Translations under genes and position numbers: made by a program
Part shown: positions 32,935 to 50,570 of the stretch, piece after piece
How the letters are laid out: every line of letters begins with the position of its first letter
Position numbering within the stretch: position 1 is the first letter of the stretch
Notes under the pieces: generated by a model
The model's input: the letters and a program-made list of their open reading frames with translations, nothing else
Told to the model about the DNA's origin: nothing
The model's database searches: none
Source of the DNA: Eledone cirrhosa
Taxonomy: Eukaryota
Assembly: GCA_964016885.1 (NCBI GenBank)
Contig: OZ024754.1
Span: 9,114,001 to 9,178,000, forward strand
DNA length: 64,000 bases
Direction: 5' to 3'

Positions 32935-35900
32935 ATGAAAGCAGTAAATATAAATCCTAAGAAATGCTTTAGTGTTAATGTGTACACACTGGATAACACA
33001 TGCTTTGAAATTACAATATTACCTCAAACTAAGGGTCATGAATGTATGAGTTATGTTGCCGACAAACTCGGAATAAAAGACTCGAGATATTTTGGTTTTC
33101 GTCACATAAACAAAGACATGCTACTTGAATGGATCAATTTAAATAAACCGATGGGTAAACAACTCGCTGCTACAAGTCTTAAACGTCCTGTCATATATTT
33201 TGGAGTGATGTGTTATATTACACGTGCTTTTACAATAGAGGATAAAATTGCACGGTATGAATATTTCAAGCAGCTTCACGTTGATTATATATATGATCAA
33301 TATAAATGTTTACCAGAGAGAGCTATCAAGTTAGCTACGTATTACCTGAGGGTAACACAAGGTCCATATAATCGGCAAAAGCACACGTATTTAGCTATTC
33401 GCAGTCTGCAACTATTGCCACGTAGCATAACAAATAATGAAAGAATTGCGGAAAATGTCACAGAAATGATATTTTTGGAATATCAACAAATTAATATGTC
33501 TTCTGAAACGTGTGCAACACTTTATATCATGGAATTTGAACGTGGGACAGATTATGGTATGGAATGCCATTCCGATGCTTTTTACAAAACTGGAGAGGCT
33601 GTGCATCTAATAACATCCCCTAAAGGGATTTTGGTTAAATATTTAACGTCACCTATGGCAATGCTCTTTAAGTGGACAGATATTACTGCTATGAAACGAT
33701 CTGGAAAGACAAGTGTTTTTATCGGAAATAAATCTGGTGCCACACATTTTCGATTGATTGGCAAAAAAAAAGCGGACTATTTTTTCCGAATGGCTGCACT
33801 TTTGTACAGATTTTATGAAGATATACAATTCCGCTGCGAAACATCGGAAGAAAGTGGTGGAATTGATGACAACAAAAGTTACTCATTCTTGTTATCAAGC
33901 AGTCCATCTTACACACTGAGAATTATTATGCGTCTCCAAAGGTCATTGACTGTTATTCCTGACACCATTACCTTTTATCAAGATGATGACACTGGAAAGC
34001 CCTTCCACTTAAAAACATCATTTCAAGAGCTAACGGCTTCCACTACACAGGAGCCAACTGCTTCCCCTCGTTTGACACAAGAGAACGTTAGTTCAGTGCA
34101 GGTTCTCCCTAAAAAAAGCGATATATTAGATATCAAAATAGATTCGCAACACATAGATACCGCTGCTGCTGAGGAGGTTTTTAAGAAAGAGATATTTCAT
34201 GATTCACCAAAGATAAAATATGAACACAGGTTACGTGAAATAAGTACCCAAACATCCTTTCGCTTGAGTTCTATGATTGATGATCGATTCAAAAGCTACA
34301 AGAAGGCTTTTCCGACGAATTTATTTTCTCAAACTATAGGGAATATGATTCAATATCTAGACGACTTTAAACAGGAATCTAAACAACTAGCTGCGGCGGA
34401 ATTTTCTGATATGCCACCAATAAAGGCCCCCGATTTTCATGAGAGTAAACTCCCAACAACTTCACAACAATCAACATATAAAGAACCGATAAGAAAACCC
34501 GATGTTCCTCAGAGTAAACTCCCTACAACTCCACAACAGTCAACATCTAAAGAACCCATAAGAAAACCCGATATTCATGAGAGTAAATTCTCTACAACCC
34601 CACAACAGCCGACATTCCAAGAACCCATAAGAAAACTCGATATTCACGAGAGTAACTTCTTTAGAACTCCACAACGGCCGGTATTCAAAAAACCCATAAG
34701 CAAACCCAATGTTCATGAGAGTAAATTCTCTAGAACTCCACAACAGCCGACATTCCAAGAACCCATAAGAAAACTCGATATTCATGAGAGTAAATTCTCT
34801 ACAACCCCACAACAGCCGGATTTCAAAGCACCTATAAGAAAACTCGATATCCATGAGAGTAAATTCTCTAGAACTCCACAACGGCCGGTATTCAAAGAAC
34901 CCATAAGAAAACACAATCTTCCTCAGAGTAAATTCCCTACAACTCCACAACAACCAACATCTAAAGAACCCATAAGAAAACCCGATGTTCCTGAAAGTAA
35001 ACTCCCTACAACTCCACAACAACCAACATCTAAAGAACCCATAAGAAAACCCGATATTCTTGAAAGTAAACTCCCTACAACTCCACAACAATCAACATCT
35101 AAAGAACCCATAAGAAAACCCGATGTTCCTGAAAGTAAACTCCCTACAACTCCACAACAACCAACATCTAAAGAACCCATAAGAAAACCCGATATTCTTG
35201 AAAGTAAACTCCCTACAACTCCACAACAACCAACATCTAAAGAACCCATAAGAAAACCCGATATTCTTGAAAGTAAACTCCCTACAACTCCACAACAATC
35301 AACATCTAAAGAACCCATAAGAAAACCCGATATTCTTGAAAGTAAACTCCCTACAACTCCACAACAACCAACATCTAAAGAACCCATAAAAAAACCCGAT
35401 ATTCTTGAAAGTAAACTCCCTACAACTCCACAACAACCAACATCTAAAGAACCCATAAGAAAACCCGATGTTCCTGAAAGTAAACTCCCTACAGCTCCAC
35501 AACAATCAACATCTAAAAAACCCATAAGAAAACCCGATGTTCATGGGAGTAAACTCCCTACAACTCCACAACAGTCAAAATCTAAAGAACCCGTTAGTGA
35601 AACGGATACTACTTCAGTTCATTCTAAACCACAGCTGCCCCAAAGTGAATATTCGAAAGGAGCTATTCCCAAATATTGGAAAGGATCAGATGTGCCTACT
35701 GGTGAGACTAACGTGGTGGAACATTCGGAAGCAACAAAAAACAGGCTAAAGAAATATAATTTACAGCTTAGATTACGGGAAGGGTATGTTTACGTAGAGT
35801 TTCAGAGAGTTGGTTTAAAAGGTGTACAAAAGCCTTGTACTGTTGGCTGTCAGTTTGGTAACCTTCGTAGAAACCGCTGTTTAACTGTTATACCTTATGA

Positions 35901-36645
35901 TGAAAATCGTGTAAAACTATCGGAAAGCCTTAGCAATTCTTCTGGTTATATAAATGCATCTCACATAAAATGGAAACGTGATGACATTCAACTAAACTTC
36001 ATTGCAGCTGAAGCACCACTTGAAAATACAGTCGAAGACTTTTGGCAAATGATTGGGGAGCAAAAGGTTTCTCTTATAATTATGTTAAATTCTGTAGATG
36101 GCGAAGATAGAGCTGGTTGTTACCGGTATTGGCCCCGACAGGGGGAACTTGGCCATAAATTTCAGTTTGCATCGCGTAAAATTATTTTTCATACTTCTAG
36201 AAAAACTACCGATTATACTTTAGATGCCCTGTCTATGGATGATAATTCCGGTAAACAACAAATAATAAGTAATCTTTCTTTTACTAAATGGTCTAAAGAC
36301 GACTGTCCGTGTGATATTCCTACTTTTACCAAATTTTTGGAAGCGATTGAATACCTACAAAAGATTTGGGGCAGTAAAACTACTGCTTCGTCTCCAGTTG
36401 TTGTTCTCTGTCACAATGGAGTTGGCCGTACTGGAGTCCTAATAATGTCGTTAATTACGAAGTGTTGTTTGATGCATAACATTGATGTAGATACGGAGGA
36501 TATACTTGCCTTCCTCCGTTCCAATAGGATGCACTTGGTTAGCATCCAACAACACTATAATTCTGTTTATGAAGTATTAATTTGTTATCTGAAAAGTTTA
36601 CATACTTTCACAAAAACCTATGTTATTGGTCCAGTTCAAATCTAA
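32935..36645 (+). CDS. Intronless FERM-domain protein tyrosine phosphatase-like protein, PTPN14/PTPN21 (Pez) family, copy 1 (1236 aa)
   Basis: N-terminal FERM (VYTLDN, YFGFR, EWINLNKP, YFGVMCY, DYGME, FKWTDI); 17x 23-aa repeat; PTP domain (PYDENRVKL, GYINASHI, DFWQMI, RYWP, LCHNGVGRTGVLI, LRSNRM); uninterrupted 3.7-kb ORF. Confidence 0.93.
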   Translation: MKAVNINPKKCFSVNVYTLDNTCFEITILPQTKGHECMSYVADKLGIKDSRYFGFRHINKDMLLEWINLNKPMGKQLAATSLKRPVIYFGVMCYITRAFTIEDKIARYEYFKQLHVDYIYDQYKCLPERAIKLATYYLRVTQGPYNRQKHTYLAIRSLQLLPRSITNNERIAENVTEMIFLEYQQINMSSETCATLYIMEFERGTDYGMECHSDAFYKTGEAVHLITSPKGILVKYLTSPMAMLFKWTDITAMKRSGKTSVFIGNKSGATHFRLIGKKKADYFFRMAALLYRFYEDIQFRCETSEESGGIDDNKSYSFLLSSSPSYTLRIIMRLQRSLTVIPDTITFYQDDDTGKPFHLKTSFQELTASTTQEPTASPRLTQENVSSVQVLPKKSDILDIKIDSQHIDTAAAEEVFKKEIFHDSPKIKYEHRLREISTQTSFRLSSMIDDRFKSYKKAFPTNLFSQTIGNMIQYLDDFKQESKQLAAAEFSDMPPIKAPDFHESKLPTTSQQSTYKEPIRKPDVPQSKLPTTPQQSTSKEPIRKPDIHESKFSTTPQQPTFQEPIRKLDIHESNFFRTPQRPVFKKPISKPNVHESKFSRTPQQPTFQEPIRKLDIHESKFSTTPQQPDFKAPIRKLDIHESKFSRTPQRPVFKEPIRKHNLPQSKFPTTPQQPTSKEPIRKPDVPESKLPTTPQQPTSKEPIRKPDILESKLPTTPQQSTSKEPIRKPDVPESKLPTTPQQPTSKEPIRKPDILESKLPTTPQQPTSKEPIRKPDILESKLPTTPQQSTSKEPIRKPDILESKLPTTPQQPTSKEPIKKPDILESKLPTTPQQPTSKEPIRKPDVPESKLPTAPQQSTSKKPIRKPDVHGSKLPTTPQQSKSKEPVSETDTTSVHSKPQLPQSEYSKGAIPKYWKGSDVPTGETNVVEHSEATKNRLKKYNLQLRLREGYVYVEFQRVGLKGVQKPCTVGCQFGNLRRNRCLTVIPYDENRVKLSESLSNSSGYINASHIKWKRDDIQLNFIAAEAPLENTVEDFWQMIGEQKVSLIIMLNSVDGEDRAGCYRYWPRQGELGHKFQFASRKIIFHTSRKTTDYTLDALSMDDNSGKQQIISNLSFTKWSKDDCPCDIPTFTKFLEAIEYLQKIWGSKTTASSPVVVLCHNGVGRTGVLIMSLITKCCLMHNIDVDTEDILAFLRSNRMHLVSIQQHYNSVYEVLICYLKSLHTFTKTYVIGPVQI
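34429..35601 (+). repeat. Coding minisatellite, 69 bp x17 (PDVPESKLPTTPQQPTSKEPIRK)
   Basis: Counted from the translation. Confidence 0.95.
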
Positions 36646-38445: not shown

Positions 38446-39140
38446 TGGATTGGCAGTATCGCGAGAGCGTCGGACAAAATGATTTGCGGTATATCGTTAC
38501 GGTGCTTTACGTTCAAATCTCGCCGAGGTTAGCTCTGCCTTTCATTCTTACGGGGTCAATAAAATAAAACACCAGTAATGCTCTGGGGTCGATTTAATCG
38601 ACTTGCGCCTACCCCAAAAGTTGTTGACCTTGTACCTAAATCAGAAACCATCGACTCCGAATAAAGGGAAGTTAAGTTGATCTCAGTATGAATTGAGCGG
38701 AGGATCAACAAAATATCTAACAGAAGTCTGTCTCAAGTCGATGTTTATCATAGTTTCCATGGCGTGAATTGACAGAGTACAAGGCTCTTAACTGGACGCC
38801 AGTCAATCGAAGGGTTAACCGTTATTCCCCCCCCCCCTCCAAGCTATTACTGGTACCCATTTTCAGCTGAATATACTAGAGCAACTTAAAATGAAGTGTT
38901 TTGTTCAAGAGCACAACACACAACCCAGTCCAAGAATTGAATCCACGTCATTATGATCGTAAGGGCCGTGGAACGTCGGACATCATGCTTTGAAGCATAG
39001 AGTTAAGTCCCTTTACGGTCTGCGTCCAAATCCCACCGAGGTTAACTTTGTCTTTCGTCCTTACTGGGTCGATAAAATAAAGTACCAGTAATAAACTGAG
39101 GGTAATTGCTGGCCTTGTGCCAAGAGAAGAAACAATTATA
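38446..39140. mobile_element. SINE cluster between the duplication units
   Basis: tRNA-SINE at 38446-38650 (+), second-family SINE at ~38740-38950 (-), tRNA-SINE at 38968-39140 (+). Confidence 0.8.
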
Positions 39141-39541
39141 TTTCTTGTCGTACATATTTAAAAACGTGAGAATGAGCTCGTGAGAAGCGTCGAAAAATAG
39201 TTCGAGGTTTATGAAAGTAACAGCACAAAAGAGATACTTCGATTTGAAACCGACACCTTGTCTCTTACCGGTGAAATAAGTAAAAAAGCAAATCCAATGA
39301 TTTTGTTCATGTTAAATGACAAATCTTTTTTTTTTCTCACGGATTTCAATATTTTCACCAGCACTCATACACATATAAATATAGGTAAGTAGATAAACGA
39401 CCACTAGGGGGGTAATTTATAGGTAGTGGAACAGAATTCTGACAGAAACCAAAAGAGAATACTGGGCTGTAACATTTGACAGATCCGAAAACTTCATTAT
39501 ATAGCAAAACAAACAAACTGGGAGACGTGGAAATTATCACA

Positions 39542-42256
39542 ATGAAAGCAGTAAATATAAATCCTAAGAAATGCTTTAGTGTTAATGTGTACACACTGGA
39601 TAACACATGCTTTGAAACTACAATATTACCTCAAACTAAGGGTCACGAATGTATGAGTTATGTTGCCGACAAACTCGGAATAAAAGACTCGAGATATTTT
39701 GGTTTTCGTCACATAAACAAAGACATGCGACTTGAATGGATCAATTTAAATAAACCGATGGGTAAACAACTCGCTGCTACAAGTCTTAAACGTCCTGCAA
39801 TATATTTTGGAGTGATGTGTTATATTACACGTGCTTTTACAATAGAGGATAAAATTGCACGGTATGAATATTTCAAGCAGCTTCACGTTGATTATATATA
39901 TGATCAATATAAATGTTTACCAGAGAGAGCTATCAAGTTAGCTACGTATTACCTGAGGGTAACACAAGGTCCATATAATCGGCAAAAGCACACGTATTTA
40001 GCTATTCGCAGTCTGCAACTATTTCCACGTAGCATAACAAATAATGAAAGAATTGCGGCAAATGTCACAGAAAAGGTATTTTTGGAATATCAACAACTTA
40101 ATATGTCTTCTGAAACGTGTGTAACACTTTATATCATGGAATTTGAACGTGGGACAGATTATGGCATGCAATGCCATTCCGATGCTTTTTACAAAACTGG
40201 AGAGGCTGTGCATCTAATAACGTCCCCTAAAGGGATTTTGGTTAAATATTTAACGTTACCTATGGCAATGCTCTTTAAGTGGACAGATATTACTGCTATG
40301 AAACGATCTGGAAAGACTAGTGTTTTTATCGAAAATAAATCTGGTCCCACACATTTTCAATTAGCCGACAAAAAAAAAGCCGACTATATTTTCCGAATGG
40401 CTGCACTTTTGTACAGATTTTATGAAGATATAAAATTTTGCAGCGAAACATCGGTACAAAGTGGTGGGATTGATGACAAGAAAAGTTACTCATTCTTGTT
40501 ATCAAGCAGTCCATCTTACACACTGAGAATTATTATGCGTCACCAAAGGTCATTGACTGTTGTTCCTGACACTATTACCTTTTATCAAGCCGATGACACT
40601 GGAAAGCCCTTCCACTTAGTAACATCGATTCAAGAGCTAACGGCTTCCAGTACACAGACGCCAACTGCTTACCCTCGTTTGACACAAGAGAACGTTAGTT
40701 CAGTGCAGGTTCTCCCTAAAAAAAGCGATATATTAGATACCAAAATAGATTCGCGACACATAGATACCGCTGCTGCTGAGGAGGTTTTTAAGAAAGAGAT
40801 ATTTCATGATTCACCAAAGATAAATTATGAACACAGGATACGTGAAATAAGTACCCAAACATCCTTTCGCTTGCGTTCTATGATTGATGATCGATTCAAA
40901 AGCTACAGGAAGGCTTATCCGACGAATTTATTTTCTCAGACTATAGGGAATATGATACAATATCTAGACGACCTTAAACAGGAATCTAAACTACCAGCTG
41001 GGGCGGAATTTTCTGATATGCCACCAGTAAAGGCCACCGATTTTCATGAGAGTAAACTCCCAACAACTTCCCAACAGTCGGCATTCAAAGAACCCATAAG
41101 AAAACCCGATGTTCATGAGAGTAAACTCCCTACAACTCCACAACAGTCAACATTTAAAGAACCCGTAAGAAAACTCGATGTTCCTCAGAGTAAACTCCCT
41201 ACAACTCCAAAACCGTTAACATTCAAAGAACCCGTTAGTGAAACGGATACTACTTCAGTTCACTCTAAACCACCGTTGCCCCAAAGTGAATATTCGAAAG
41301 GAGCTATTCCCAAATATTGGAAAAGATCAGATGTGCCTACTGGTAAGGCTTATGCGCTGAAACATGCGGCAACAATAAAAGACAGGAGAAAGAAATATAA
41401 TTTACAGCTTAGATTACGGAAAGGGTATGTTGACGTAGAGTTTCAAAAAGTTGGTTTAAAAGGTGTACAAAAGCCTTGTACTGTTGGCTGTCAGTTTGGT
41501 AACCTTCGTAGAAACCGCTGTTTAACTGTTATACCTTATGATGAAAATCGTGTAAAACTATCGGAAAGCCTTAACAATTCTTCTGGTTATATAAATGCAT
41601 CTCACATAAAATGGAAACTTGATGACTTTCAACTAAACTTCATTGCAGCTGAAGCACCACTTGAAAATACAGTCGAAGACTTTTGGCAAATGATTGGGGA
41701 GCAAAAGGTTTCTCTTATAATTATGTTAAATTCTGTAGATGGCGAAGATAGAGCTGGTTGTTACCGGTATTGGCCCCGACAGGGGGAACTTGGCCATAAA
41801 TTTCAGTTTGCATCGCGTAAAATTATTTTTCATACTTCTAGAAAAACTACCGATTATACTTTAGATGTCCTGTCTATGGATGATAATTCCGGTAACCAAC
41901 AAATAATAAGTAATCTTTCTTTTACTAAATGGTCTAAAGACGACTGTCCGTGTGATATTCCTACTTTTACCAAATTTTTGGAAGCGATTGAATACCTACA
42001 AAAGATTTGGGGCAGTAAAACTACTGCTTCGTCTCCAGTTGTTGTTCTCTGTCACAATGGAGTTGGCCGTACTGGAGTCCTAATAATGTCGTTAATTATG
42101 AAGTTTTGCTTGATGCATAACATTGATGTAGATACGGAGAATATACTTGCCTTCCTCCGTTCCAATAGGATGCACTTGGTTAGCATCCAACAACACTATA
42201 ATTCTGTTTATGAAGTATTAATTTGTTATCTGAAAGGTTTAATTTCTTCCAGTTAA
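39542..42256 (+). CDS. Intronless FERM-PTP (PTPN14/21-like), copy 2 (904 aa)
   Basis: ATG at 39542 is homologous to the copy 1 start (the track start 39476 is TTG); highly similar to copy 1, only 3 linker repeats (41036-41242) and an altered C-terminus. Confidence 0.92.
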   Translation: MKAVNINPKKCFSVNVYTLDNTCFETTILPQTKGHECMSYVADKLGIKDSRYFGFRHINKDMRLEWINLNKPMGKQLAATSLKRPAIYFGVMCYITRAFTIEDKIARYEYFKQLHVDYIYDQYKCLPERAIKLATYYLRVTQGPYNRQKHTYLAIRSLQLFPRSITNNERIAANVTEKVFLEYQQLNMSSETCVTLYIMEFERGTDYGMQCHSDAFYKTGEAVHLITSPKGILVKYLTLPMAMLFKWTDITAMKRSGKTSVFIENKSGPTHFQLADKKKADYIFRMAALLYRFYEDIKFCSETSVQSGGIDDKKSYSFLLSSSPSYTLRIIMRHQRSLTVVPDTITFYQADDTGKPFHLVTSIQELTASSTQTPTAYPRLTQENVSSVQVLPKKSDILDTKIDSRHIDTAAAEEVFKKEIFHDSPKINYEHRIREISTQTSFRLRSMIDDRFKSYRKAYPTNLFSQTIGNMIQYLDDLKQESKLPAGAEFSDMPPVKATDFHESKLPTTSQQSAFKEPIRKPDVHESKLPTTPQQSTFKEPVRKLDVPQSKLPTTPKPLTFKEPVSETDTTSVHSKPPLPQSEYSKGAIPKYWKRSDVPTGKAYALKHAATIKDRRKKYNLQLRLRKGYVDVEFQKVGLKGVQKPCTVGCQFGNLRRNRCLTVIPYDENRVKLSESLNNSSGYINASHIKWKLDDFQLNFIAAEAPLENTVEDFWQMIGEQKVSLIIMLNSVDGEDRAGCYRYWPRQGELGHKFQFASRKIIFHTSRKTTDYTLDVLSMDDNSGNQQIISNLSFTKWSKDDCPCDIPTFTKFLEAIEYLQKIWGSKTTASSPVVVLCHNGVGRTGVLIMSLIMKFCLMHNIDVDTENILAFLRSNRMHLVSIQQHYNSVYEVLICYLKGLISSS

Positions 42257-42333
42257 AACCTAAATTGTCTGAAATTACATTACAATTTAAGCTATCACTT
42301 GATTGATTGTTTCTGAAATATATTTTTCTTTAT

Positions 42334-42400
42334 ATTAAATATTTTCTAAAATTCGTAATAAAATGTTTTTTATACTAAATCTGATTTTTTTTTTTTCTTT
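42334..42400 (+). terminator. Candidate polyadenylation signal of copy 2
   Basis: ATTAAA at 42334, AATAAA at 42357, downstream T-run. Confidence 0.5.
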
Positions 42401-42659
42401 CCCCCTGGAAGAATGTTAGTCTATTTCTGATGCAGGAGAAATGATATACCTACAAGAAAAGTATAGAATATTGTATTAGTGTTAAAATATAACCAAATAG
42501 AAAATTTTGGCTCAAGCAAGATCCACTTGTGTATTGCTGACACACTTGACAAAATACAAAAGAAAACGATATAGTTGATTAGCCACACTGATGTCAATGG
42601 TTTACTATCGAGCGCCGTCCCTTATTTTAGTATTTTAACGCTAAAATAGGTCATTGAGG

Positions 42660-43401
42660 CTCTTCATAATAATTATTTATTTACAATAGTTTATAACTTT
42701 GCCTATTAATCTGTATGGTGAGCAAATGGGGTCCCACGTGCTGGCCTCCCCACAGCCCCGGCGGACAGGATGGAGAGGGCGTTTCCCCGGAGGATGGTAG
42801 GGTAGATGCGCTGGAAGAGCCATTTCAACTCGCGAGGCTCACACCTGCGGCTGGCCAGCTCAGCGCCTATGGAGGTCGCCTTAGGGCCAAGGACACCAGA
42901 AGTCTCCACTGCCAAGGGCACGACCGCGAACCTGTCGGAGAGCGACCGGTACTTGGAGAGTTTGGCCTCCTCAGCCCGACGTGCAGCAGAACCTGGGTTA
43001 GTCGCAGACTGCACCTGGTTGCGGCTGGAGAAAGTGTCGCTGCGAGTGGCATCCCAGACGAGGGGTTTGCCACCGCGGAACGGGAAGATGGTGATACCGT
43101 CTGGCCTTTTGCCAGCCCCACTGGCTCGAACAGGGAGGGGAGGGAAGCCTGCAGCGTCCAAGCCATGCTTAATGACCTCGTTGAGGGCAGCATGGCGTGG
43201 AAGGCGACCGGCACTGTAGGGCAGCATAGCGTGGAAGGCGACCGGCACTGTAGCAACAGGAAAGCGGGTGGAGTCCGAAAGAGTACACGGTGGATCCACA
43301 GCGACATTTATGTGGCTCGCAGATCCGGAGTCCAAGCCTCAAGGAAACGCCTATGCGTAGTCTATCGTTATCCAGCTGCGTGCCAGTGGAGAAGGATAGC
43401 A
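42660..43401 (-). mobile_element. CRE-like RLE element fragment inserted in the copy 2 3' flank
   Basis: RIGVSLRLGLRICEPHKCRCG, RHAALNE, KRPDG, WDAT, KLSKY, WLFQR, RGNA; absent from the homologous site in unit 1 (~37097). Confidence 0.88.
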
Positions 43402-44469
43402 TGAAGTCGAGACATTTACTCATTTTAGCAGATGTCATCCCGAATAACTTAAACCTTCTGAAAGTTCTTACAATAATTACAATTTTCCTTGGTAAAACCA
43501 AGGAATTATTGCTTATTCTTGTGAGTATTTGAAAAATATATGTCATAGAAGAAACATCTATGCACTCATTCGACATATTAGAAATAGCAGCCAGCAAAAT
43601 CTCTTAAATAGGAATCTACTGTTAAATTAGAAAAGACACGAACGAATGCGATCCTGGATACACACTGCCGGAAATGAAAATATAGGGGATGTTCAAGGCT
43701 TGTCGTGATATGTTAAATCAAGAGTTACTTGGCTCTAAATAAAGTAGTAGCAATCGAGTTTTCATCTGAAAGGCTTCGCCTGGAGTTGTTTTATATAGGT
43801 TTTGTTAGGTAAGAAAAGCCATGTTTTCATATACAATTTAGAAATGGGACACAAATACACGAGATTAGCAAAGAAGCTGTTGTCGGTTGTTTGGCAGGGA
43901 AAAGCTCAAACTCCTGAACAGATCTCTCTATGACAACATCCATCTCCTGCGACACATAATAGAGAATGACTAATAAACCTGGCGCCGATGGGCTCAGATA
44001 AAAATGGATCCATCCGAATATTTTAATAGTGTCGTCTGTCCTTACGACAGCCGGTTTCGGTCCCTTTTTGTCAGAGGCTTTAATTGACACTGGTATTTTC
44101 TCGGTGGTCAGAATAAATGGGTATCTTTCGGAATCGTTTCGAATCACGCATTCAGTCCGTGAAGGGTGCCTTTCACATTCCTTCCGAGGTTACAAACAGC
44201 AACCAATGTCATATTGTCATGTAAACACAAAATTGTATTGTCTTGCAGCGTCTTCGATATTATGTAAAACATTATGGTCAATAAAATTATTTTTTATTAT
44301 CACTGACAACATACTTTGCTGCATATATTTTGCGGCCCTTTCTGTTTTGAGTTCAAATTTCGCCGTGGTTAGCTTTGCCTTTCATTCTTACGTGGTCGAT
44401 AAAATAAAACACCAGTAATGCACTGGGGTCGATTTAATCGACATGCCGGTCTCCACTGCATATGTCGTT

Positions 44470-46901: not shown

Positions 46902-49900
46902 ATGAAAAGAGTGAATATAAATACTAAGGACGGTTTTAATGTTCATGTGTACACACTGGATAACATTTGTTTTGAAACTACAGTATTACCTCACACCAAT
47001 GGCCATGATTGTTTGACTTATGTTGCCCACCAGCTTGGAATAAAAGACGCGAAATATTTTGGTTTTCGTCACATCACCGACGATCTGCGAGTTGAATGGA
47101 TTGATTTAGATAAGCGGTTGGTGAAACAACTCGCTACAAACTCTGAACACCCTACTTTGTATTTTGGTGTGATGTGTTATATTTTCCAGGCTTATAAAAT
47201 AGAGGATAAGAGAGCACGGCATCAGTATTTCAAGCAGCTTCACGTTGATTATATATATGATCAAAATAAATGTTTACCAGAGAGAGCTATCAACTTAGCC
47301 TCATTTCACCTGAATGCAACGCAAGGTCCATATAATTCCCAAAAGCACACGTATTTAGCTGTTCGCCGTCTGAAACTGTTTCCACGTCGCCTAATGGATG
47401 ATGAAAGAGTTGCTGAAGATGTTATAGAAAAAACTCTTCTGAAGTATCAACACCTTGCTATAGGTTGTGAATTTAGTGCAACGCTTTATATAATAGAATT
47501 CGAGCGTGCGGTGTATTATGGAATGGAATGCCATAGTGCTGTTTTTTACAACACAGGGGAGTCGCTGTATCTAATAACTTCACATAACGGAATTCTGATT
47601 AAATATTTAACGTCGATAACAGGATGTCTCTTTAAATGGGCAGATATTATTGCAATAAGACGATCTAGAAAGACTAGGATTACAATTAACGAAAAGATAT
47701 TTGGTTCCGCACAATTTCAATTCGCCAATAAAAAAAGAGCGAAATACTTTTTCCGAATGGCCTGTCTTTTTTACAGATTCTATCAAGATAATAGAATATT
47801 TTGTGGCAAACTATCCAAAGATACGGTTGAGACTGAGGATGACACACCTTACACAATATTGCTATCAAATAGTCCATCAGACACTTTGAGAATTCTTATC
47901 AATTACCAGCAATCGTTTACCCCTGTTCCTGAGGACATTAGCCCAGCTTCTAGTAGCATTTATGAAGCTAGTGACACTACACAGACCCTCCCCATACAAA
48001 CATCGCTTCAAGAGAAAATTGCTTCCTATACACACGAAGCAATTGACACCCTTTGTTCGGTGCCAGAGAATGTTAGTTCTGTGCAAGTTCGGAAAAGAGA
48101 GACATTAGATATCGAAATAGAGCCCCAGCCTATTATAAATATCGTTGCTACTCAAGTATGGTTAAAGAAAGAAATATTTTCGGATGACTCTCTAACAATA
48201 AAACACAAAGCATGGAAACGTAACATGGGCACACAAACACTACCTTGCTTGAAATCTATGATTGAAGATCGATTCAAGAATTATTCTAACACTCATCCAC
48301 TATATTTGCTTTATTGGACTTTAAAAAATATTCTTCAATATCTAGACAGTGTAGAACATTCCGAAAGTCAAACCCCGATTGCTGAAATTGAATCAAAACT
48401 GAAAACTGAGACTGGTTTCTCCTATTTGCAACCGGTCAAATTACCCGATGTTCCTGAGAGTAAACACCCTACAACTCCACAACAGTCAACATTCAAAGAA
48501 CCTGGTGTTCCTGAGAGTAAACACCCTACAACTCCACAACAGTCAACATTCAAAGAACCCGATGTTCCTGAGAGTAAACACCCTACAACTCCACAACAGT
48601 CAACATTCAAAGAACCCGACGTTCCTGAGAGTAAACGCCCTACAACTCCACAACAGTCAACATTCAAAGAACCCGATGTTCCTGAGAGTAAACACCCTAC
48701 AACTCCACAACAGTCAGCATTCAAAGAACCCGATGTTCCTGAGAGTAAATCCCCTACAACTCCACAACAGTCAGCATTCAAAGAACCCGATGTTCCTGAG
48801 AGTAAATCCCCTACAACTCCACAACAGTCAGCATTCAAAGAACCCGATGTTCCTGAGAGTAAACACCCTACAACTCCACAACAGTCGGCATTCAAAGAAC
48901 CCGATGTTCCTGAGAGTAAACAGTCAACATTCAAAGAACCCGATGTTCCTGAGAGTAAACAGTCAACATTCAAAGAACCCGATGTTCCTGAGAGTAAACA
49001 GTCAACATTCAAAGAACCCGATGTTCCTGAGAGTAAACAGTCAACATTCAAAGAACCCGATGTTCCTGAGAGTAAACAGTCAACATTCAAAGAACCCGAT
49101 GTTCCTGAGAGTAAACAGTCAACATTCAAAGAACTCGATGTTCCTGAGAGTAAATCCCCTACAACTCCAAAACAGTCGGCATTTAAAGAACTCGATGTTC
49201 CTGAGAGTAAATCCCCTACAACTCCAAAACAGTCGGCATTTAAAGAACGCGATGTTCCTCAGAGCAAACTCCCTGCAACTCCACAACAGTCAGCATTTAA
49301 AGAACACGATGTTCACGAGAGTAAACTCCCTGCAACTCCACAACAGCCGGCATTTAAAGAACACGATGTTCATGAGAGTAAACTCCCTGCAACTCCACAA
49401 CAGCCGGCATTTAAAGAACCAATTAGTGAAACGGACACTTCATTTAGTTCTAGTTATATTTCCTTCAGGAATGAAGCTGGTGCTGTTTTATCCACTAGCA
49501 CAAAGGAAACAAACTCGTCGAACGTTGTTGAATCACAACCTGACGCACCCATAGATATACAATCAAAAGACCACACAGTCAGTTCTAAACCACAGCTGTC
49601 GCAAAGTGAATATTCGAAAGGAGCTATTCCCAAATATTGGAAAAGAACAATTGTGTCTGAAGAAATTACAAAGAAATGTGCAGATTTACAACTTAAATTA
49701 CGCGAAGGCTATGTTTTCACAGAGTTCCAAGAAGTCGATTTAAAATATACACATATTCCTTGTACGGTTGGCCGTCAGTTGGATAACCTTTCTAGAAACC
49801 GTTCTCCAACTGTTATACCTTATGATGAAAATCGTGTAAAACTATCGGAAAGCCTTAGCAATTCTTCTGGTTATATAAATGCATCTCGCATAAAATGGAA

Positions 49901-50570
49901 ACACGATGACTTTCAATTAAACTTCATTGCAGCTGAAGCACCACTTGAAAATACAGTCGAAGACTTTTGGCAAATGATTTGGGAGCAAAAGGTTTCTCTA
50001 ATAATTATGTTAAATTCTGTAGATGACGAAGATAAAGCTGGTTGTTGCTCGTATTGGCCCCGAGATCGGGAACCTGGCCATAAATTTCAGTTTGCATCGC
50101 GTAAAATTATTTTTCATACTTCTAAAAAAACTACCGATTACACTTTAGACATTCTTTCAATTATTGATAATTCTGGTGACCAACAAATAATAAGTAATCT
50201 TTCTTTTACTAAATGGTCTAAAGACGACTGCCCGTGTGATATTCCTACTTTTATCAACTTAGTGGAAGAGATTGAAATTCAACAGAGGCTTTTGAGTATA
50301 GAAACTTCTGTGGCGTCTCCAGCTGTTGTTCTCTGTCACAATGGAGTTGGCCGTACTGGAGTCCTAATAATGTCGTTAATTATGAAGGTTTGTTTGAAGC
50401 ATAACCTTGATGTAGGTGTGCAGTATTTGCTTTCCTTGCTCCGTGCCAGTAGAATGCACTTGGTTAGAACACAAAAACAATATAATTACGTTTATAAAGC
50501 TCTGATTTGTTATCTGAAAAGTTCACACTCTCAGCAAGTATCCTATGTCTTTGGTCCAGTTAAACTCTAA
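46902..50570 (+). CDS. Intronless FERM-PTP (PTPN14/21-like), copy 3 (1222 aa), more divergent
   Basis: Same architecture and the same atcacaATG start context; FERM clearly diverged, PTP core close to copies 1/2; LCHNGVGRTG. Confidence 0.93.
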   Translation: MKRVNINTKDGFNVHVYTLDNICFETTVLPHTNGHDCLTYVAHQLGIKDAKYFGFRHITDDLRVEWIDLDKRLVKQLATNSEHPTLYFGVMCYIFQAYKIEDKRARHQYFKQLHVDYIYDQNKCLPERAINLASFHLNATQGPYNSQKHTYLAVRRLKLFPRRLMDDERVAEDVIEKTLLKYQHLAIGCEFSATLYIIEFERAVYYGMECHSAVFYNTGESLYLITSHNGILIKYLTSITGCLFKWADIIAIRRSRKTRITINEKIFGSAQFQFANKKRAKYFFRMACLFYRFYQDNRIFCGKLSKDTVETEDDTPYTILLSNSPSDTLRILINYQQSFTPVPEDISPASSSIYEASDTTQTLPIQTSLQEKIASYTHEAIDTLCSVPENVSSVQVRKRETLDIEIEPQPIINIVATQVWLKKEIFSDDSLTIKHKAWKRNMGTQTLPCLKSMIEDRFKNYSNTHPLYLLYWTLKNILQYLDSVEHSESQTPIAEIESKLKTETGFSYLQPVKLPDVPESKHPTTPQQSTFKEPGVPESKHPTTPQQSTFKEPDVPESKHPTTPQQSTFKEPDVPESKRPTTPQQSTFKEPDVPESKHPTTPQQSAFKEPDVPESKSPTTPQQSAFKEPDVPESKSPTTPQQSAFKEPDVPESKHPTTPQQSAFKEPDVPESKQSTFKEPDVPESKQSTFKEPDVPESKQSTFKEPDVPESKQSTFKEPDVPESKQSTFKEPDVPESKQSTFKELDVPESKSPTTPKQSAFKELDVPESKSPTTPKQSAFKERDVPQSKLPATPQQSAFKEHDVHESKLPATPQQPAFKEHDVHESKLPATPQQPAFKEPISETDTSFSSSYISFRNEAGAVLSTSTKETNSSNVVESQPDAPIDIQSKDHTVSSKPQLSQSEYSKGAIPKYWKRTIVSEEITKKCADLQLKLREGYVFTEFQEVDLKYTHIPCTVGRQLDNLSRNRSPTVIPYDENRVKLSESLSNSSGYINASRIKWKHDDFQLNFIAAEAPLENTVEDFWQMIWEQKVSLIIMLNSVDDEDKAGCCSYWPRDREPGHKFQFASRKIIFHTSKKTTDYTLDILSIIDNSGDQQIISNLSFTKWSKDDCPCDIPTFINLVEEIEIQQRLLSIETSVASPAVVLCHNGVGRTGVLIMSLIMKVCLKHNLDVGVQYLLSLLRASRMHLVRTQKQYNYVYKALICYLKSSHSQQVSYVFGPVKL
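48444..49418 (+). repeat. Coding minisatellite: 8x57 bp + 6x39 bp + 5x57 bp
   Basis: PDVPESKHPTTPQQSTFKE and the deletion variant PDVPESKQSTFKE, counted from the translation. Confidence 0.95.

What the first reader, a model, noticed from the sequence alone, without database searches (positions are those of the whole stretch)
35860..36600. Catalytic machinery rewired in all three copies: candidate pseudophosphatases or substrate traps
Seen: P-loop HCSAGxGRTG reads LCHNGVGRTG (Cys and Arg kept); WPD loop reads WSKDDCP (general-acid Asp replaced by Lys, with Asp at +1/+2); Q-loop VQTxxQY reads VSIQQHY in copies 1/2 and VRTQKQY in copy 3; IATQGP reads IAAEAP; KNRY reads RNRC/RNRS. Known: loss of the WPD Asp and Q-loop Gln in classical PTPs gives substrate-trapping or dead enzymes, though PTPN14/21 already deviate at the pTyr loop. 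Inference: pTyr-binding decoys, or enzymes with altered substrate use that rely on the shifted Asp.
Basis: partly seen in the sequence, partly recalled or inferred. Interest (0 to 1): 0.72.

Follow-up and report, generated by a model that had tools for sequence, protein, structure and literature searches.

The report
Octopus-lineage dead tyrosine phosphatase trio
Three neighbouring genes are altered copies of the signalling enzyme Pez (PTPN14/21) that lost the residues normally needed to cut and grip phosphotyrosine while the genome keeps a normal Pez gene elsewhere, so they likely act as inactive scaffold proteins, a form shared with Octopus species.

Summary
In detail: all motif readings are in the three tandem, single-frame FERM-PTP genes. 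A canonical Pez/PTPN14/21 gene lies on another contig (WPDHGCP, HCSAGVGRTG, VQTFGQY), so the changes are derived, except IATQGP to IATQAP and KNRY to KNRF, which the parent shares. The three copies are not independent evidence. Orthologues in Octopus sinensis, O. vulgaris and O. bimaculoides (53-54% identical in the domain) read WS[G/Q]DDCP and LCHDGVGRTG, so this is an older lineage-specific paralogue. Across it the catalytic positions vary freely (general acid K/G/Q; first Q-loop Gln S/R/T), and the P-loop +2 Ala is Asp/Asn, the same two lesion sites that inactivate IA-2. The fold is predicted intact (pLDDT 91.5, closest to PTPN21/14) and the core is conserved. Best reading: a likely dead pseudophosphatase scaffold. 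A phosphotyrosine trap is unlikely, because the binding pocket is altered too. A new enzyme using the shifted Asp pair is not excluded. Selection on the phosphatase domain of the window's copies looks relaxed. No expression or activity data were obtained.

The parts
32935..36645 (+). Copy 1: single-frame FERM - linker - 23-aa repeat - degenerate PTP gene, 1236 aa
39542..42256 (+). Copy 2: 904 aa, about 94% identical to copy 1; short repeat array; C-terminal tail lost through a deletion that shifts the frame
46902..50570 (+). Copy 3: 1222 aa, older duplicate (72% identical to copy 1 in the PTP domain, 62% in FERM)
32935..33819 (+). FERM domain of copy 1 (residues 1-295), under moderate purifying selection against copy 3
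34270..34371 (+). Conserved derived linker segment (SMI.[DE]RF...QYLD), shared with the Octopus orthologues and not alignable to Pez; candidate interaction element (inferred)
34429..35592 (+). 69-bp (23-aa) Pro/Lys/Ser/Thr-rich repeat, 16.9 copies; 2.9 copies in copy 2; 57-bp unit with 17.2 copies in copy 3
35860..36582 (+). Degenerate PTP domain of copy 1 (Pfam PF00102, residues 976-1216)
35869..35889 (+). pTyr-recognition loop RNRCLTV (parent KNRFSDV): aromatic and Asp lost
36289..36309 (+). WPD loop WSKDDCP (parent WPDHGCP; Octopus WSGDDCP, WSQDDCP)
36406..36435 (+). P-loop LCHNGVGRTG (parent HCSAGVGRTG; Octopus LCHDGVGRTG): Cys and Arg kept, His before Cys lost, +1 His, +2 Asn
36538..36558 (+). 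Q-loop VSIQQHY (parent VQTFGQY; copy 3 VRTQKQY; Octopus VTSLKQY)
36595..36645 (+). Derived C-terminal tail ending Y-[VL]-x-G-P-hydrophobic-x-hydrophobic, kept in copies 1 and 3 and in Octopus, absent from Pez and copy 2
41501..42223 (+). Degenerate PTP domain of copy 2
49785..50507 (+). Degenerate PTP domain of copy 3

Best explanation
The three genes are tandem copies of a Pez/PTPN14/21-derived paralogue, also found in Octopus species, whose phosphatase domain lost its general acid and first Q-loop glutamine and is likely a catalytically dead, still folded protein-binding module. Shown: the canonical parent on another contig, the shared derived clade, free variation at catalytic positions, conservation of the structural core, open frames. 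Inferred mechanism: after duplication the parent kept catalysis and the WW-binding PPxY/LPxY motifs, and the copy lost both. The FERM domain would place it at the cell cortex, and the dead PTP domain, a new conserved linker segment and a new C-terminal tail would bind partners without using the pTyr pocket. The kept Cys and Arg are likely structural or redox-sensitive leftovers, as in receptor D2 domains. In this genome the gene was triplicated, and selection on the PTP domain appears relaxed, most in copies 1 and 2.
For: Parent with canonical motifs at G000:C22:17640731-17644171. Orthologues named in Octopus sinensis, O. vulgaris and O. bimaculoides. The five paralogue rows in the tree form one clade (100/100) on a 1.7-substitution stem among spiralian Pez proteins. 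Catalytic columns in c1,c2,c3,O.sin,O.bim: general acid KKKGQ, first Q-loop Gln SSRTT, second HHQQQ, P-loop +2 NNNDD, the pTyr-loop Asp TTTSS, the MLT..E Glu GGDDN, the K before CY GGGLG. The 62 other rows have D in 51, Q in 57, Q in 62 and A in 60. IA-2 is inactive through loss of the WPD Asp and Asp at Cys+2, and HD-PTP through Ser at Cys+2 (passages). Fold predicted intact, mean pLDDT 91.5, TM 0.93-0.96 to PTPN21/14. Differences avoid the universal core (c3 vs O. bimaculoides 21% vs 57%, p=2e-8; c1 vs c3 16% vs 32%, p=0.006). In a related organism's contig, copy-3 residues 1142-1162 around the P-loop carry 6 synonymous and no replacement changes. PPxY and LPxY are absent from all three window copies. 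Retention of the Cys in inactive domains is described for D2 domains and PTPRU (passages).
Against: No activity or binding assay, and no expression data. CX5R and the whole GVGRTG are invariant in all 5 paralogue rows, and PTPN21, long thought dead, has weak activity (passages). Six loop positions chosen after the fact are more fixed than background (5 of 6, p=0.016), which may mark a new function at the old active site. The PTP domain of c1/c2 against c3 cannot be told from neutral at the DNA level (dN/dS 0.71-0.74, interval up to 1.17; K0/K4 about 1.1). No partner was identified. O. bimaculoides has one PPKY in an unrelated position. The model's coordinates could not be inspected, so pocket geometry is argued from alignment only.
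Confidence: 0.68

Rival explanations
1. The domain is a slow enzyme with new specificity (a lipid or non-tyrosine phosphate), using one of the two fixed Asp residues after the old general-acid position, or the P-loop Asp of the Octopus proteins, as acid.
For: WS-x-DD-CP and LCH[DN]GVGRTG are kept in 5 of 5 rows at about 53% identity; neither Asp occurs in any of 62 other rows. Only synonymous changes in the P-loop of a related organism. Lipid phosphatase activity is reported for a PTP with an altered WPD loop (PTPRQ; passage).
Against: Over all 14 derived active-site positions fixation equals background (5 of 14, p=0.50). The P-loop Asp is Asn in the window's copies. The His before the Cys (62 of 62 elsewhere), the Glu of MLT..E and both water-binding Gln (copies 1, 2) are gone; Gln-to-Ala changes at these Q-loop positions greatly cut PTPN21 turnover (passage).
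Confidence: 0.1
2. The domain is a phosphotyrosine-binding decoy (substrate trap) that shields Pez targets.
For: General acid and Q-loop Gln are lost while Cys, Arg and the glycine-rich loop are kept, as in engineered D181A/Q262A traps (PDB titles). The Octopus orthologues have the canonical Tyr in RNRY.
Against: The window's copies have Cys/Ser in place of the aromatic, Thr for the Asp, His/Asn in the P-loop and two Asp beside the pocket. A polar residue at Cys+2 is modelled to disfavour pTyr binding in HD-PTP (passage).
Confidence: 0.08
3. The ancestral paralogue had a role, but the window's extra copies (above all copies 1 and 2) are redundant and drifting towards pseudogenes; the motif changes are plain decay.
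For: PTP dN/dS near neutral; core losses only in c1/c2 (W to G in FWQMIW, second Q-loop Gln to His); tail lost in c2.
Against: All three frames are open over 904-1236 codons. In neutral substitution simulations no stop arose in only 22 of 2000 (PTP, distance 0.15) and 4 of 2000 (FERM, distance 0.3) runs. FERM dN/dS is 0.51-0.54, interval below 0.75. A related organism holds two related contigs whose listed indels keep or quickly restore the frame. The main motif changes predate these copies.
Confidence: 0.14

Closest known systems
PTPN14/PTPN21 (Pez, PTPD1/2) FERM-PTP family
   Same: FERM plus C-terminal PTP; best single-domain PDB matches and best fold matches; the CP after the WPD loop; nested among spiralian Pez in the tree. 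Loss of the WPD Asp recurs in this family: 11 of 62 other rows.
   Different: Many lesions at once (WPD loop, P-loop -1/+1/+2, Q-loop, pTyr-loop Asp), no PPxY in the window copies, a new linker segment, repeats and tail; about 37-42% identity to cephalopod Pez in the PTP domain.
IA-2/ICA512 (PTPRN) and HD-PTP (PTPN23) pseudophosphatases
   Same: Cys and Arg kept; general acid lost or changed; Ala at Cys+2 replaced (Asp in IA-2 and in the Octopus orthologues, Asn here, Ser in HD-PTP) (passages).
   Different: Not orthologous; different architecture; convergent. IA-2 needs two back-mutations for activity, while this protein has many more changes.
Receptor PTP D2 domains (CD45 D2) and PTPRU
   Same: CD45 D2 reads WSVEQLP and HCRDG, the same W-S and C-x-D-G pattern (alignment); Cys retained in dead domains (passages).
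   Different: Here the dead domain is the only PTP domain of a cytoplasmic FERM protein.
Octopus 'PTPN14-like' gene models XP_029641943.1, CAI9728038.1, XP_052826362.1
   Same: Orthologous clade, same derived motifs, linker segment and tail.
   Different: One protein cluster per species was found, no repeat array, Tyr in RNRY, Asp at Cys+2; annotated only by automatic name.

Membership tests
PTPN14/21 (Pez) lineage by descent | N-terminal FERM plus single C-terminal classical PTP domain | tested here: met
PTPN14/21 (Pez) lineage by descent | PTP domain groups with Pez proteins in tree and fold search | tested here: met
   inside an 18-row spiralian group at 90/91 support; exact sister unresolved (long branch; test_one_clade not run)
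PTPN14/21 (Pez) functional orthologue | PPxY/LPxY motifs in the linker (role in WW binding recalled) | tested here: not met
   none in c1-c3; present in the parent
Active classical PTP | CX5R P-loop | tested here: met
   C-H-N-G-V-G-R
Active classical PTP | WPD general acid | tested here: not met
   Lys; Gly/Gln in orthologues
Active classical PTP | Ala at Cys+2 and His before Cys | tested here: not met
   Asn and Leu
Active classical PTP | Q-loop glutamines | tested here: not met
   first Gln S/S/R; second His in c1 and c2
Pseudophosphatase | PTP fold kept with catalytic motifs degenerate | tested here: met
   (fold is a prediction)
Pseudophosphatase | No measurable catalysis | not testable with these tools
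   needs assays
Substrate-trapping PTP | Intact pTyr-binding pocket beside the lost general acid | tested here: not met
   by alignment only
Substrate-trapping PTP | Stable pTyr-dependent binding | not testable with these tools
   needs binding assays

The most novel reading that the evidence does not exclude
Octopods rebuilt the Pez active site into a new functional pocket: the fixed Ser, Asp-Asp, Leu-Cys-His-[Asp/Asn] set, kept with Cys and Arg across lineages that differ at almost half their residues, acts on or reads a ligand other than phosphotyrosine (a phosphoinositide or a basic or redox partner) without the canonical general acid.
Probability: 0.12. Interest if true: 0.7.

Novelty: new variant of a known kind. 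Interest (0 to 1): 0.36.

Why it matters
It is an apparently undescribed cephalopod-lineage pseudophosphatase subfamily with its active parent in the same genome and orthologues at graded distances. That gives a natural series for asking how a PTP turns into a scaffold and why the catalytic Cys is kept. It converged on the IA-2 and CD45-D2 lesions. Pseudophosphatases and Pez proteins without the general acid are already known, so the surprise is moderate.

Tried and rejected
Expression: no RNA holder listed; this says nothing either way. Supplements of two octopus gonad transcriptome papers had no matching names (PMC11202624, 1 file; PMC6341066, 6 files). Literature: no paper held octopus + PTPN14 + tyrosine phosphatase; none held the five accessions; the ten listed hits of octopus/cephalopod/pseudophosphatase had no occurrence of the last term; subscription journals are not searched. 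Earlier findings of this scan: none. Retrogene origin could not be shown: the parent's coding region is itself one frame, the T-run after copy 1 is on the wrong strand for a poly(A) tail, and copies 1 and 2 share flanks, which points to DNA duplication. Other genome hits (C10, C11, C17, C5) look like exons of other PTPs, not further copies; these searches give lower bounds. The weak Tc-R-P and DSPc Pfam hits are below their cut-offs and reflect the P-loop. The Atlas search gave only PTP-family leads under 0.9. Enrichment of fixed residues at the active site was rejected once all 14 derived positions were counted. FERM-PTP complex prediction was not run, since a pass would follow from likeness to the solved PTPN21 complex. 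The WSKD and Q-loop letters of the related organism were not resolved: 3 of 36 differences were unlisted.

Full report
Observation. The region 35860-36600 is the PTP domain of a 1236-aa single-frame gene (32935-36645). Two more copies follow (39542-42256, 46902-50570). All have FERM_N, FERM_M and Y_phosphatase. PTP1B-style labels used in my scripts (Y46, D48, E115, K120, D181, H214, A217, Q262, Q266) were assigned by motif and partly recalled; I did not align residue by residue to PTP1B.

Parent. Searches of the own genome found the three copies and one more full-length relative on contig C22 (lower bounds). It is a 1147-aa single-frame Pez/PTPN14/21 orthologue, 67% identical to a protein whose cluster holds a cuttlefish PTPN14_21 record. 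It reads KNRFSDV, IATQAP, WPDHGCP, HCSAGVGRTG and VQTFGQY. The WPD, P-loop and Q-loop changes are therefore derived. The GP-to-AP and Y-to-F deviations are family traits.

Orthologues. The representative search gave one close protein, O. sinensis XP_029641943.1 (55%); its cluster holds O. vulgaris CAI9728038.1. A profile search added O. bimaculoides; the search of longer proteins found no further member among 43 hits. They read RNRYQS, IAAQAP, WS[G/Q]DDCP, LCHDGVGRTG and VTSLKQY. In a tree of 25 PTP domains (O. vulgaris left out as nearly identical to O. sinensis) the five paralogues form one clade (100/100) on a stem of 1.7 changes per column, inside an unresolved spiralian Pez group. The window's organism is thus likely an octopod (inferred). 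The rewiring happened once, before these copies arose.

Pattern of conservation. Of 151 columns conserved in at least 11 of 12 spiralian Pez rows, 69 are kept by all paralogues, 23 are fixed at a new residue and the rest vary. The catalytic columns are among those that vary: general acid KKKGQ, first Q-loop Gln SSRTT, second HHQQQ, pTyr aromatic CCSYY, following Asp TTTSS, the MLT..E Glu GGDDN. Fixed new residues include WPD-loop Ser and Asp-Asp, Leu before the Cys and His after it. Six hand-picked loop positions look enriched (5 of 6, p=0.016), but all 14 derived active-site positions do not (5 of 14; background 46 of 141; p=0.50). Structural core columns are significantly conserved. AlphaFold2 with 67 rows gives an intact PTP fold (pLDDT 91.5, pTM 0.92), closest to PTPN21 and PTPN14 (TM 0.93-0.96).

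Selection. Copies 1/2 against copy 3: FERM dN/dS 0.51-0.54 (interval 0.37-0.73), PTP 0.71-0.74 (0.46-1.17). By site degeneracy, K0/K4 is 0.5 for FERM (p=0.01) and about 1.1 for PTP. Synonymous divergence is lower in PTP (0.19) than in FERM (0.45) and patchy, which suggests gene conversion. In keeping with this, at 6 of 34 mapped sites copies 1 and 3 agree while both contigs of a related organism share another letter (only 40 of 235 rows were shown). One of those contigs spans copy 3's WPD-to-Q-loop stretch: of 33 listed differences (36 in all), 12 are synonymous and 21 lie in changed codons (pS 0.22, pN at most 0.115), with six synonymous and no replacement changes over residues 1142-1162. Open frames are unlikely under neutrality. 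The protein is maintained, but constraint on the PTP domain of copies 1 and 2 is weak.

Mechanism. Passages read: ICA512/IA-2 is inactive because the WPD Asp is Ala and Cys+2 is Asp (PMC2174349). HD-PTP is inactive through Ser at Cys+2, and a polar residue there is modelled to disfavour pTyr (PMC2661844). PTPRU and D2 domains keep the Cys while dead (10.1101/805119). PTPN21 with WPE is weakly active and needs its Q-loop Gln (PMC10901363). PTPN14 and PTPN21 are listed as pseudophosphatases in a review (PMC9464862). A simulation study names the pTyr-contact residues of PTP1B (PMC4035576). This protein has both IA-2 lesion sites plus Q-loop and pocket changes, so catalysis is likely lost (inferred). 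Trapping needs the pocket, which is altered too. Outside the site, the clade lost the parent's PPxY/LPxY motifs and gained a conserved linker segment and a conserved C-terminal tail. I commit to a FERM-targeted, non-catalytic scaffold (0.68); partners and tissue are unknown.

Against and open. CX5R is invariant, no assay exists, no RNA run was listed, and pocket geometry was not measured. Loss of the general acid also occurs in 11 of 62 other family rows, among them frog, vole, pike and echinoderm proteins, which lowers the novelty of that single change.

Novelty. The searches listed no paper on this gene; subscription literature and preprint supplements were not covered. Verdict: a new lineage-specific variant of a known kind (pseudophosphatase from the Pez family); interest 0.36.

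Noticed in passing
G000:C22:17640731-17644171 (L007:3732-7175): The canonical Pez/PTPN14/21 gene is coded in one uninterrupted frame of 1147 codons; vertebrate orthologues are multi-exon (recalled), so an old retroposition may have replaced the gene in this lineage.
   Followed up: partly
window:34429-35592, 41037-41235, 48436-49420: In-frame Pro/Lys/Ser/Thr-rich repeats with different unit lengths (69, 57, 39 bp) and copy numbers, absent from the O. bimaculoides orthologue.
   Followed up: partly
window:32427-38107 vs 39039-44438: Copies 1 and 2 share upstream and downstream flanks (84-94% identity): a tandem DNA duplication unit of about 5.5-6.6 kb.
   Followed up: partly
window:42230-42256: A short deletion shifts the frame of copy 2 and removes the conserved C-terminal tail.
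   Followed up: partly
window:55613-58018 +: An 801-aa acidic, low-complexity open frame with no Pfam match lies 5 kb downstream of copy 3.
   Followed up: no
L008 (G000:C10:12086700-12090000, minus strand): A receptor-type PTP with unusually long exons; its second domain reads HCKDGATNSG, the same Cys-x-Asp-Gly pattern as the Octopus orthologues.
   Followed up: partly
alignment A3, rows P0031, P0041, P0089, P0141, P0161, P0243, P0308: Several PTPN14/21-family proteins of frogs, vole, pike, echinoderms and a jellyfish lack the WPD Asp (WPG, WPH, WPL, WPN, WPV), so general-acid loss recurs in this family.
   Followed up: partly
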